From: Girardia tigrina
Lineage: Eukaryota
Direction of reading: 5' to 3'
NCBI GenBank assembly: GCA_001938485.1
Contig: MQRK01228157.1
Location: 1 to 58,394, forward strand
Length of the DNA stretch: 58,394 bases
Part shown: in pieces, positions 55,001-58,394 of the stretch
Layout of the letters: each line of letters starts with the position of its first letter
Position numbering within the stretch: position 1 is the first letter of the stretch
Program-made: the position numbers

Positions 55001-58000
55001 TTATTTTTAATAAGATTTATATTAAATATCTTTATAAATGTTATTCAACAACATAAAATGATAAATATTGTTTAGCAACTAGACGTTCTGGTCAACAATA
55101 TTTATTACACTTGCATTTACGCCAAAATGATACTGGTCCTTTATAGTTGGTTCTTATGTTTATATAATTATATTAATTGAAAAGATTAATAAATAAGTAA
55201 CATAAGAAACAAATTTTTTTACATTTATTTATTTTAAAGTCACATACGTCTTGGCAAATTAATATATAATACTAAAATCACTGATTTGTTTGAGATATAA
55301 TTATATTCATTCATGCAAATTAGAATTTATTAATTTGTGTGATGTTTTGGTAAACGTTCAAAGTAATATTAGTAAAAATCAGGTATGAAAAATATATAAA
55401 AATAAGTGTTATTGTATTGAATACAAGCAAATAACAAAGATTAAATATTTTTATATTTTAGAAGAACCTCATCTTGAGTATGAAGATTTCAAAGTAATTA
55501 TGAAACAGTATTCGAAAACAAAAGAACAGTTAAGTGCCATGATCGATGAAGCTTTTATGGTTAGTTTATACTTTATTTTGATGTAATAAGACTTTATTTA
55601 TTAATTATAATTAGTTAATATGCTCGAGAAAAAAGGTTTTTTGGCATCCGCAATTACTGATTCTTACTTTTATAGAGTGTACTGATTTCCAATCTAAAAT
55701 TAGTCTTTCTCTGAAAGCTTCAAGGCTCATTAAAAATACTTATTTTAATCATAAAATTTCAGTAGGACCTATTCAAATTCCATTCGAGCTAAATTTGCAC
55801 TAGTACATTGATTAAATATCCCCTTACATGATGCTCCAGTAGACGCTTGCTATCCTCTTCCTGTCCCAATGCATCTGATAACGATCTATTTATTGGTAAG
55901 AGCTCCAAAATTTTCGTGAAACTTATCAAGGTTCATGAAGTGAATCTTAAAGCTCTTTTTTTACGTTAATATACTCTTTGTTCATACTGATCTCATTTAT
56001 ATGGATAAGAAAGAAGTAGCAGTCACAACTCTGGCCTCACGTTCAAACCAAAACATGGGAGTACCAAAAAAACATTGCTTTTTTGTTTCTTTGTGTCCAT
56101 CCCAATACATCCTCAATCATTCGTTAAAAAAATCCAACGAAGAATAACATCTTTATTTAATAATAATAATTATAATTACAACATAAAATAAATCAATTTT
56201 TTATCGATTCTTAAAATTTTATATGTATATATATATGTTCCATAAAAAGGTTGGTCACAACATTAGCCCCCTTATTAAAAGTGGAACGTTTGGGTTCTAA
56301 TAACTGTCTGTTGTTTTTCTGTTTGTTAATGATCGAATTTTCTTTTATATTTTCTAGTAACTTATTATTGATATAAAGTAGCTTCAATTCTTCTAGTGAT
56401 TTTTCTGACCAGAATCTTATTCTTTTCTGGTTTACTAAAGTGTTGGTACCCCTTATGTCCAAGACGAAAGAATGCTTCTGTTGGTCAATGGGCCTTCAAA
56501 AAAATCGCTTATGTTATTTCTAACTAATGCCAAAAAATCGGCATAAATGTCTCTATTTGATTCTTCGTTTCCACTAACGGTGCCTACTTTGTCCCTAACA
56601 CTGGTATTGTTTATTTCTTTTTAAATTGATTTTCTTCCTCTGCTTGTATGGTGTTGGTTGCGTTTTGCAAACTTCCACGAACCAATGTATTTTTATTGTG
56701 ATCATTTGATTGAAAAATATTTGTGTTTACATTGTCGGTTGAAAAATCATATTATTATTATTAGAATTAAGTGTACAAATGCCAGTCTGGGAAATATCTA
56801 AAATTTCTTGTCCTGAAGCACTTATCCTTGGACATAACAAATGACTTTGTGTATGTGCTACATCAGAATGAGGAAAACTCTGAGGTTTTGTAGTAACCGT
56901 CAATTTTAATGTTGGTGCAATCGAATTAGAAATGTTATTACTAGATATTTGTGAAGATGGTTAAGGAGATGCTGTTAATAGCTCTAATGAATCCTCTAAT
57001 GCTGCAGTGGCCAACTCAGCAGATCCAGGTCCATTTTATGTCAATACAACTTGTTGCTCATTGCTTGGATTAGGAATTACATCAGCAGGAGTTTGATAAA
57101 CAAACTAAGGATGCGGTAAATTTATCACAGGAGCCGGTTGGGGTAACATAATATTAGCATATTGTGGAGACTGTGAAGCTAAATCTGAAGAATTTTACCC
57201 AGGGACGTGAAATAGATTTCATCCGCTTTGGAAAGCATATGGAGCTGGTCCATTATATAAAACTGTTCCAGATATTTTTTGTTGAGGAAATAAATTTTTC
57301 TTCCTTACATCATGGCCAATGTTCAATTTTCGTTTTTTAAATATCATTTTTTAGCTTCATTTTTGATGATTTTGTTAGCAGTTTCCTGATTTTCAAAAGT
57401 CACAAATCCAAAGCTTCTTTTCTATAATCCCGTACGATCATTTATTATGTTAGCGTATATATTTGGACCATAACTCGAAAAGAAAATTTTTAATTCGTCC
57501 TCAGTTGTATTTGATGTGAGTCCGCCAACAAAAATTCTATTTGGGATTAGTGTACCTATTTTTGGTATTGATTTGCGAAAGATAGAATTAAGCTGATTTG
57601 ACTGATTGATTTGATTATTATTTGCTTTATTATTTTTTTGAGAAATTCGCATGTTAATGAAGGCATCATTTTAAAAGTCGAAGAATAATCTTTCTACTGA
57701 AAATTGTATTTTTCATTTAGTCCCGATAAATTGTCTTGTTGAATTTGAAGTTTGGTTAATAACTTCTTAATTAATTTTTTAAAATTACTTGGAGGCGAAT
57801 TTTTCTTTTTATATAGATGCATTTTCTTATTCTTTATTTCTTTCTTCTGACACAAGTGTTGAGGATCATATTGGTCAACAATCATTCGTTAAAAAAATCC
57901 AACGAAGAATAATGTCTTTATTTAATAATAATAACTATAATGATAACATAAAATAAATCCATTTTTTTATCGATTCTTAAATTTTTATATGTATTTATGT

Positions 58001-58394
58001 TTTCTATAAAAAGGTTGGTCACAACAGTTTCCTTGTGTCCCATTCTGATACATTTCCTCAGAGGTATGATACACTATATGAGAGACCAAATTTTTGTCCA
58101 ACATTATCATATCTCAAGCTGGTATCCAGAACACTAAAGCAAACTCTGAGATTTTATCTTCCACTTGACCACCAACTCATGATCTGGATGTTTTTGCAGC
58201 ATCTTATAAATCTTCTTTAGAGCTTATTTGATATTTGTTTATGGGATAGCCATTGATAGAGTTTGACCTACTCAGAATTGTACTACGGAATGATATGAAT
58301 AGTTATTTTATTGAAAATTAATAATTATTCAGAGTACTGAAATAATACGTTTTAATATTAAGTAGGGGGAAAATGGGCATTCTGGCGACATACC

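What the first reader, a model, noticed from the sequence alone, without database searches (positions are those of the whole stretch)
56114..58026. Germline regulator boule captured inside an LTR retroelement
Seen: an intronless Boule-type RRM and tail fill most of a 1.6-kb interior between ~170-bp LTRs, co-oriented with a PBS-like site and a PPT, with a possible integrase tail left over. Established: Boule/DAZ proteins are germline translational regulators, and LTR elements can retropose host mRNAs by template switching. Inference: a transduced boule. If the family is multicopy with conserved RRMs, it would be a mobile element carrying a germline RNA-binding gene. This copy is dead, and it is antisense to the host intron.
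Basis: partly seen in the sequence, partly recalled or inferred. Interest (0 to 1): 0.78.

Follow-up and report, generated by a model that had tools for sequence, protein, structure and literature searches.

The report
Dead boule retrocopy inside planarian LTR element
A decayed, processed copy of the germline RNA-binding gene boule sits between two short terminal repeats in what looks like a flatworm genome, replacing the middle of a small retroelement; this kind of gene capture is already known in other animals.

Summary
Two direct repeats (56114-56262 and 57879-58026; 149 and 148 bp, 137 of 150 columns identical) enclose a 1,616-bp interior. On the minus strand this interior carries a Boule-type RRM and the conserved stretch after it. 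The best named hit is Schmidtea mediterranea Boule 1, so I take the window for a planarian, not human.

The copy is dead, with frameshifts and in-frame stops. A purine tract lies beside the 3' repeat. No canonical primer-binding site, no 4-6-bp target duplication and no TG...CA ends were found.

Three results support capture by replacement:
- An unnamed protein (P0001) is a second copy of the same leader-plus-RRM fusion and is uninterrupted.
- Another protein (P0022) shares the leader but continues into a Cys/His knuckle-like protein instead of boule.
- A relative of P0022 (P0026) ends in an integrase-tail-like stretch that matches the window just inside the 3' repeat.

This fits LTR-mediated retroposition (Tan et al. 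2016) followed by copying as a non-autonomous element. No gag-pol parent, genome-wide copy number, intron-bearing parent or host intron could be checked. It is a new member of a known kind, of moderate interest.

The parts
56114..58026 (-). Whole repeat-bounded unit (1,913 bp), read on the minus strand: repeat, leader, boule cargo, element-derived tail, purine tract, repeat.
57879..58026 (-). 5' terminal repeat (148 bp). The minus strand begins with TG. A TATA-like run and an AATAAA follow in that order; this is read by eye and is weak evidence in AT-rich DNA.
   Evidence: 137 of 150 columns identical to the other repeat.
57581..57878 (-). Element-derived leader, not boule. It is homologous to the N-terminal part of P0001, and through P0001 to the first 33 residues of P0022. 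Broken: 1 frameshift relative to P0001.
   Evidence: 22 of 37 and 19 of 48 residues identical to P0001.
56640..57580 (-). Boule-derived cargo, given as one broken gene. The RRM lies at about 57310-57540. The conserved post-RRM stretch runs to 57138. A coding-like continuation runs to about 56600-56640; the 3' junction is not sharply placed. Broken by frameshifts and in-frame stops.
   Evidence: Against P0006: 1 frameshift and 3 stops. The next 179 codons hold 4 stops in the continuing frame, where 12.5 +/- 3.3 are expected.
56277..56639 (-). Element-derived 3' interior. 56489-56566 matches P0026 residues 330-355, the integrase-tail-like part of that protein. Decayed.
   Evidence: 61.5% over 26 aa, E 3.2e-6. 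(P0026 300-370: 13 Atlas hits carrying MLVIN_C, scores 0.90-0.91; a lead only). Pfam gave nothing.
56263..56276 (-). Polypurine-tract-like run, 4 nt from the 3' repeat, in the orientation of the ORFs.
56114..56262 (-). 3' terminal repeat (149 bp).
56085..56113 (.). Outer flank. It forms an imperfect direct repeat with 58027-58060, in the geometry of a target duplication but far too long for an integrase.
   Evidence: local score 27 against 14.2 +/- 3.5 in controls; 14 of 1,891 control pairs reach it.
58027..58060 (.). Outer flank, partner of 56085-56113.

Best explanation
This is an old, dead copy of a small non-autonomous LTR-type retroelement of a planarian. The middle of its internal ORF was replaced by a processed piece of a boule mRNA: the RRM plus the tail, without boule's own N-terminus.

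The likely mechanism is inferred. During reverse transcription of a co-packaged boule transcript and the element RNA, reverse transcriptase switched template twice. This left the element's leader fused to the Boule RRM at the 5' side and the element's integrase-tail remnant, purine tract and repeat at the 3' side.

The chimera was then copied again as a unit, which would explain a second copy with the same junction and the same diagnostic substitutions. The copy in the window has since decayed and probably does nothing.

Shown: the repeats, purine tract, Boule identity, breaks, second copy, and homology of both interior ends to one protein family. Inferred: template switching, the LTR class of the parent, and spread by retrotransposition.
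For: - Repeats and purine tract.
- Boule identity: RRM_1. 21 of 56 candidates passed and all the named ones are Boule/RRM proteins. The post-RRM stretch matches parasitic-flatworm Boule, for example P0006 at 43% over 74 aa.
- Second copy: P0001, an uninterrupted 239-aa ORF with leader plus RRM.
  - Over 47 RRM columns the window equals P0001 at 45 and P0002 at 40.
  - In 4 columns the window and P0001 share a residue absent from all 8 other Boule proteins. In 0 columns the window sides with P0002 against P0001.
- Replacement rather than insertion:
  - P0022 residues 1-33 are 94% identical to P0001 residues 77-109, then continue into a knuckle-like protein.
  - No knuckle part is found in the window element.
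  - P0022 is homologous to P0026 (28% over 218 aa, E 3e-14). The P0026 C-terminus matches window 56489-56566 (E 3.2e-6).
- Integrase-tail lead.
- No long A-run at the 3' junction (by eye).
- The same architecture and the same re-copying are described for other animals in Tan et al. 2016 (PMC5131818; abstract and section 5 read).
Against: - No 4-6-bp target duplication. The 5 bases on each side agree at 1 of 5 positions.
- The flanks instead share a 27-34-nt imperfect repeat that an integrase would not make.
- The repeat begins with TG but does not end with CA. No TGG-type PBS is present.
- No relative with RT, protease or integrase core was retrieved. The long-protein word search found 0 passing among 1,437 candidates. 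The all-library search found only 6 proteins.
- Pfam finds nothing in P0022, P0024, P0026 or the window's 3' piece.
- The leader is tied to the knuckle family by a single 33-residue stretch at the edge of P0022. Leader against P0024 is not significant (E 0.12-14).
- The distal 179 codons of the 'tail' match no Boule protein (all E >= 0.1).
- The species of origin of P0001 and P0022 is unknown.
Confidence: 0.7

Rival explanations
1. A boule processed pseudogene made by LINE-type machinery landed inside a pre-existing LTR element. The association would then be nesting, not capture.
For: The window is dense in retroelement debris: RVT_1, a Pao peptidase, and GIY-YIG-looking ORFs seen by eye. Nesting is therefore common here. 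A short A-rich run lies near the 3' junction.
Against: P0001 and P0022 share the leader up to one point and then differ. The knuckle part of the element ORF is missing from the window, so sequence was replaced rather than split. There is no long A-run at the 3' junction. The cargo lacks boule's N-terminus and is fused in frame to the leader in P0001. A second copy has the same junction.
Confidence: 0.08
2. The two 150-bp repeats are not LTRs. The unit would be some other repeat-bounded segment, either another transposon class or a DNA-level rearrangement, that happens to hold a boule pseudogene.
For: No canonical TSD, no CA end, no TGG-type PBS. No RT or IN core in any relative. The flanks carry a 27-34-nt repeat that is atypical for integrase.
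Against: A purine tract lies beside the correct repeat in the correct orientation, although G5/C5 runs are rare (10 in 58.4 kb). An integrase-tail-like homology lies just inside it. No hammerhead or other Rfam family of the Penelope or retrozyme type was found. The order of parts matches an LTR element.
Confidence: 0.12
3. Leader plus RRM is a genuine planarian boule paralogue (P0001). P0022 would be the chimera, and the window would hold a retrocopy of that host gene.
For: P0001 is an uninterrupted ORF. The first half of its RRM is 45 of 48 identical to the window, while the leader is only 19 of 48 and 22 of 37 identical. That pattern would fit a constrained host gene.
Against: None of 8 other Boule proteins has this leader. 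The window's other interior end also matches the P0022/P0026 family, which a host-gene retrocopy would not explain. P0001 reads the stretch after the RRM out of the ancestral Boule frame. The literature passages seen name two Schmidtea paralogues only (PMC6225667, passages).
Confidence: 0.08

Closest known systems
LTR-mediated retrocopies of Drosophila, mosquito, zebrafish, chicken and mammals (Tan et al. 2016, PMC5131818; abstract and section 5 read)
   Same: An mRNA piece truncated at both ends replaces part of the element's internal ORF. Both LTRs are kept. There is no poly(A) and no TSD around the cargo. Cargo and element share orientation. Re-copied loci share junctions and diagnostic substitutions, which the authors read as behaviour of a non-autonomous LTR element.
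   Different: Here the host is a flatworm and the cargo a germline regulator. Microsimilarity at the junctions could not be examined. The element's superfamily is unknown. The insertion lacks a short TSD. That paper's supplementary junction tables were not available to me.
Bs1 of maize, an LTR retroelement carrying host gene fragments (passages of the review PMC13317346)
   Same: A small LTR element whose interior is largely transduced host coding sequence, forming a hybrid ORF.
   Different: Bs1 is a plant element with three cargo genes. Here a single cargo is fused to a gag-like leader.
Smed-boule1 / Boule 1 of Schmidtea mediterranea (P0002; role as summarised in PMC6225667, passages)
   Same: Closest named relative of the cargo: 40 of 47 residues in the first RRM half and 65% over 113 columns overall.
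   Different: The window copy has another N-terminus (the element leader) and 4 substitutions shared only with P0001. It keeps the ancestral reading after the RRM, which the 154-aa deposit does not show. It is broken.
Capture of cellular genes by retroviruses (recalled; Tan et al. section 5 cites it as the analogous mechanism)
   Same: Host coding sequence lies between LTRs, fused to the start of gag, with loss of internal element genes and dependence on helpers.
   Different: Nothing here suggests a virus particle, an envelope gene or any effect on the host. This copy is dead.

Membership tests
Boule/DAZ-family RNA-binding protein (the cargo) | A single RRM of the RRM_1 type | tested here: met
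   RRM_1 in two open pieces, E 1.6e-8 and 2.7e-4, profile positions 1-36 and 39-58 of 70.
Boule/DAZ-family RNA-binding protein (the cargo) | Closest relatives are Boule proteins rather than other RRM proteins | tested here: met
   all named hits are flatworm or springtail Boule/RRM proteins; the best named is S. mediterranea Boule 1. DAZL RRM chains appear among the PDB hits but do not rank above hnRNP or TDP-43 RRMs.
Boule/DAZ-family RNA-binding protein (the cargo) | Conserved stretch directly after the RRM | tested here: met
   matches to P0005, P0006 and P0011 at 43-50% over 43-74 aa, out to 57138.
Boule/DAZ-family RNA-binding protein (the cargo) | DAZ motif | not tested
   No model of the motif was available in the libraries used. 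The motif as I recall it was not typed.
Boule/DAZ-family RNA-binding protein (the cargo) | Intact reading frame | tested here: not met
   1 frameshift and 3 in-frame stops against P0006; 4 more stops in the next 179 codons. It is a pseudogene, not a working member.
LTR retrotransposon (structure) | Two direct terminal repeats | tested here: met
   149 and 148 bp, 137 of 150 columns identical.
LTR retrotransposon (structure) | Polypurine tract next to the 3' LTR | tested here: met
LTR retrotransposon (structure) | TG...CA termini | tested here: not met
   the minus-strand repeat starts with TG but does not end with CA.
LTR retrotransposon (structure) | Target-site duplication of 4-6 bp | tested here: not met
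   the flanking 5-mers agree at 1 of 5 positions. A 27-34-nt imperfect flank repeat is present instead.
LTR retrotransposon (structure) | PBS complementary to a host tRNA 3' end | not testable with these tools
   No tRNA gene in the window and no host genome available. The bases after the 5' repeat do not begin with TGG.
LTR retrotransposon (structure) | gag/pol, or descent from an element that has them | tested here: inconclusive
   A knuckle-like relative (P0022/24/26) and an integrase-tail lead exist. There was no Pfam hit and no relative with an RT or IN core. I therefore describe it as working like a non-autonomous LTR element and do not file it in a named superfamily.
LTR-mediated retrocopy (Tan et al. 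2016) | Cargo replaces part of the element ORF instead of interrupting it | tested here: met
   P0001 and P0022 diverge at one point. The knuckle part is absent from the window element.
LTR-mediated retrocopy (Tan et al. 2016) | Microsimilarity at the fusion points | not testable with these tools
   This needs nucleotide sequences of the parental boule mRNA and of the uncaptured element.
LTR-mediated retrocopy (Tan et al. 2016) | Cargo lacks the parent's introns | tested here: inconclusive
   The window is contiguous where P0003 differs from P0002 by 3-aa and 5-aa insertions and where P0020 has a 13-aa insertion. I read these as gene-model traces of introns. The parental locus was not seen.
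LTR-mediated retrocopy (Tan et al. 2016) | Further copies share the junction and diagnostic substitutions | tested here: met
   one further copy (P0001).

The most novel reading that the evidence does not exclude
The leader::Boule-RRM fusion is not just debris. It would be the working ORF of a planarian retroelement family that kept its RRM under purifying selection while it spread: a mobile element carrying its own germline-type RNA-binding domain, for example to tie its RNA or protein to germ-cell RNA granules.

The hint is uneven conservation between the two known copies. The first RRM half is 45 of 48 identical, against 19 of 48 and 22 of 37 in the leader. P0001 also has an uninterrupted ORF.
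Probability: 0.15. Interest if true: 0.7.

Novelty: new member of a known kind. Interest (0 to 1): 0.42.

Why it matters
If the reading is right, it extends LTR-mediated retroposition to flatworms, which Tan et al. did not sample. It shows a germline translational regulator as cargo, fused in frame to the element's leader and copied at least twice.

It also flags a practical point for planarian work. Boule-like RRM sequences exist outside the two functional paralogues. They could confound probe, RNAi or transcript assignment.

The copy in this window is itself inert.

Tried and rejected
- Rfam, whole window at gathering scores and the region at E<=5: no hammerhead or other family. This argues against a Penelope/retrozyme-type repeat.
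- ARAGORN: 0 tRNA genes, so there was no PBS test.
- Pfam on P0022, P0023, P0024, P0026 and on the window's 3' pieces, up to E 10: nothing relevant.
- Word search for long relatives of P0022: 0 passing among 1,437 candidates.
- Atlas on P0022: only weak zf-CCHC leads, scores 0.82 and 0.77.
- PDB sequence search with P0026: one chance-level hit.
- AlphaFold model of P0026: mean pLDDT 38, so no fold search was run.
- Distal tail against 21 Boule-type proteins: all E >= 0.1.
- Leader against P0024: not significant.
- Search for RasGEF exons downstream of 29467: 0 of 143 plus-strand open frames of 34-65 aa and none among the longer frames.
- A 15-nt motif beside the 5' repeat that seemed to recur inverted in the flanks: no more than chance (30 of 100 shuffles give a match).
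- Literature searches for a boule retrocopy or an LTR-borne boule in planarians found nothing on the point.

Full report
**What the window is.** The window is AT-rich, with GC mostly 0.20-0.32 per 2 kb. It holds four N runs, which I left as they are. It is crowded with transposon remains:
- three Mos1/mariner-type transposase remnants;
- a pogo-type DDE_1;
- a Pao peptidase;
- an RVT_1 piece.

The proteins nearest to the finding are flatworm proteins, and the best named one is Boule 1 of Schmidtea mediterranea. I therefore take the window for a planarian genome, not human. The species is not established.

**The observation.**
- Two direct repeats lie at 56114-56262 and 57879-58026 (149 and 148 bp). 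137 of 150 aligned columns are identical, with 10 mismatches and 3 gap columns; K2P is 0.072.
- There is no third copy in the window.
- The interior is 1,616 bp.
- Of 72 open frames in and around the unit, two adjoining minus-strand pieces match Pfam RRM_1, at E 1.6e-8 and 2.7e-4. The only other hit was a sub-threshold chance match.
- A word-indexed search with the first RRM piece returned 21 passing proteins of 56 candidates. All the named ones are Boule or RRM proteins of flatworms, plus two springtails.
- PDB hits include DAZL RRM chains, though generic RRMs score as well.
- Boule proteins of parasitic flatworms also match the stretch directly after the RRM. The outer bounds of Boule homology are 57138-57586.
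- The next 179 codons continue in the same frame with 4 stops where 12.5 +/- 3.3 are expected. They match no Boule tail. That they are boule tail is inference.

**State of the copy.**
- Against P0006, the Boule-homologous stretch shows 1 frameshift and 3 in-frame stops.
- Against P0001, the leader-plus-RRM reading shows 1 frameshift and 5 in-frame stops.

**Orientation and element features.** The ORFs read on the minus strand.
- In that orientation a purine tract containing AAGGGGG lies 4 nt before the 3' repeat. G5/C5 runs occur only 10 times in the window.
- The repeat begins with TG but does not end with CA.
- The bases after the 5' repeat do not begin with TGG.
- No 4-6-bp target duplication is present.
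- Instead, the two outer flanks share a 27-34-nt imperfect direct repeat. Its score is 27 against 14.2 +/- 3.5 in controls, and 14 of 1,891 control pairs reach it. I cannot explain this.
- Rfam found no hammerhead or other family, and ARAGORN found no tRNA.

**Relatives that decide the reading.**
- *P0001.* This is an unnamed 239-aa protein from a 1,087-bp contig. It is an uninterrupted ORF with the same non-boule leader fused to the same RRM.
  - Over 47 columns of the first RRM half, the window equals P0001 at 45 and Boule 1 (P0002) at 40.
  - In 4 columns the window and P0001 share a residue seen in none of 8 other Boule proteins. In none does the window side with P0002 against P0001.
  - The two copies are therefore one capture lineage.
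- *P0022.* This is another unnamed protein. Its first 33 residues are 94% identical to P0001 residues 77-109. It then continues into a different sequence with a Cys/His knuckle-like motif instead of boule.
- *P0024 and P0026.* An all-library search with P0022 found only 6 proteins. Among them, P0024 and P0026 are clear relatives.
  - The C-terminal part of P0026 (residues 330-355) matches the window at 56489-56566, just inside the purine tract, at E 3.2e-6.
  - The Atlas places P0026 residues 300-370 nearest to clusters carrying the integrase C-terminal domain MLVIN_C: 13 hits, scores 0.90-0.91. This is a lead, not a test. Pfam finds nothing, and the AlphaFold model was too poor to use (pLDDT 38).

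Both ends of the interior thus come from one element-protein family, and the middle of that protein is absent and replaced by boule. This is the pattern that Tan et al. 2016 describe for LTR-mediated retroposition by template switching, including re-copying of the chimera as a non-autonomous element (PMC5131818; abstract and section 5 read).

**Weak points.**
- No relative with reverse transcriptase, protease or integrase core was retrieved.
- The leader is tied to the knuckle family by one 33-residue stretch only. Leader against P0024 is not significant.
- 'Intronless' rests on indirect evidence.
  - P0003 is P0002 with 3-aa and 5-aa insertions and a different end.
  - P0020 has a 13-aa insertion at the first of those places.
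  - I read these as traces of introns in genomic gene models. The window is contiguous there.
- The host gene has RasGEF_N at 20110-20418 and RasGEF at 29249-29467 on the plus strand.
  - I searched its candidate exons one at a time and made no joined model.
  - No further RasGEF piece was found downstream: 0 of 143 open frames.
  - Placement in a host intron therefore stays open.

**What stayed unchecked.**
- Genome-wide copy number, the parental boule loci, junction microsimilarity, dN/dS, PBS-tRNA matching and expression.
- No eukaryotic genome collection was at hand. The genome collection on offer holds only bacteria and archaea, so I did not use it.
- The supplementary files of Tan et al., which hold their junction data, could not be seen.

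**A hint toward a bolder reading.** Between the window and P0001, the first RRM half is 45 of 48 identical. The leader is 22 of 37 and 19 of 48 identical. This unevenness would fit past constraint on the RRM within the element lineage. It rests on two copies, one of them decayed, and on protein comparison only.

**Verdict.** The thing is a new example of a known process and of moderate interest. Searches of the paper library found nothing on a boule retrocopy or an LTR-borne boule in planarians.

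Noticed in passing
window 38844-39083 (-): An open frame with a TBP-fold match (Pfam TBP, E 2.1e-5), isolated among transposon debris. It may be another gene fragment or retrocopy.
   Followed up: no
window 56085-56113 and 58027-58060: The outer flanks of the unit form a 27-34-nt imperfect direct repeat in target-duplication geometry. It is too long for an integrase and slightly more diverged than the LTR pair.
   Followed up: partly
P0002 and P0001 against the window's Boule-homologous stretch: The deposited 154-aa S. 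mediterranea Boule 1, and P0001, read the stretch after the RRM in a different frame from parasitic-flatworm Boule proteins. The window's best-matching frame follows the parasitic-flatworm reading. The deposit may therefore be a short isoform or carry a shift.
   Followed up: partly
P0003, P0020 (proteins): Small insertions at fixed places in otherwise identical or similar Boule RRMs look like traces of introns read into gene models. They mark likely intron positions of the genomic boule genes.
   Followed up: partly
window 33488-34189 (-), 40769-41399 (-), 54124-54863 (+): Three Mos1/mariner-type transposase remnants (HTH_48 and Transposase_1). The last lies about 1.2 kb upstream of the unit.
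   Followed up: no
window 43817-44185 (-), 37636-37998 (-), 19308-19604 (+): ORFs that look by eye like GIY-YIG endonuclease modules of Penelope-like elements. There was no Pfam hit at 1e-3 for the 43817-44185 and 19308-19604 frames scanned; the N-containing 37636-37998 frame was not scanned.
   Followed up: no
window 5815-6078 (-), 13440-13658 (-), 16207-16749 (+): Pao retrotransposon peptidase, a reverse-transcriptase start and pogo-type DDE_1 pieces. None is related to the unit by DNA.
   Followed up: no
window 20110-20418 (+), 29249-29467 (+): RasGEF_N and RasGEF exons of a host gene. The rest of the RasGEF domain was not found in the window.
   Followed up: partly
P0023 (protein): A 447-aa protein made of about six repeats of the same Cys/His knuckle-like motif found in P0022, P0024 and P0025. 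No Pfam family covers it.
   Followed up: no
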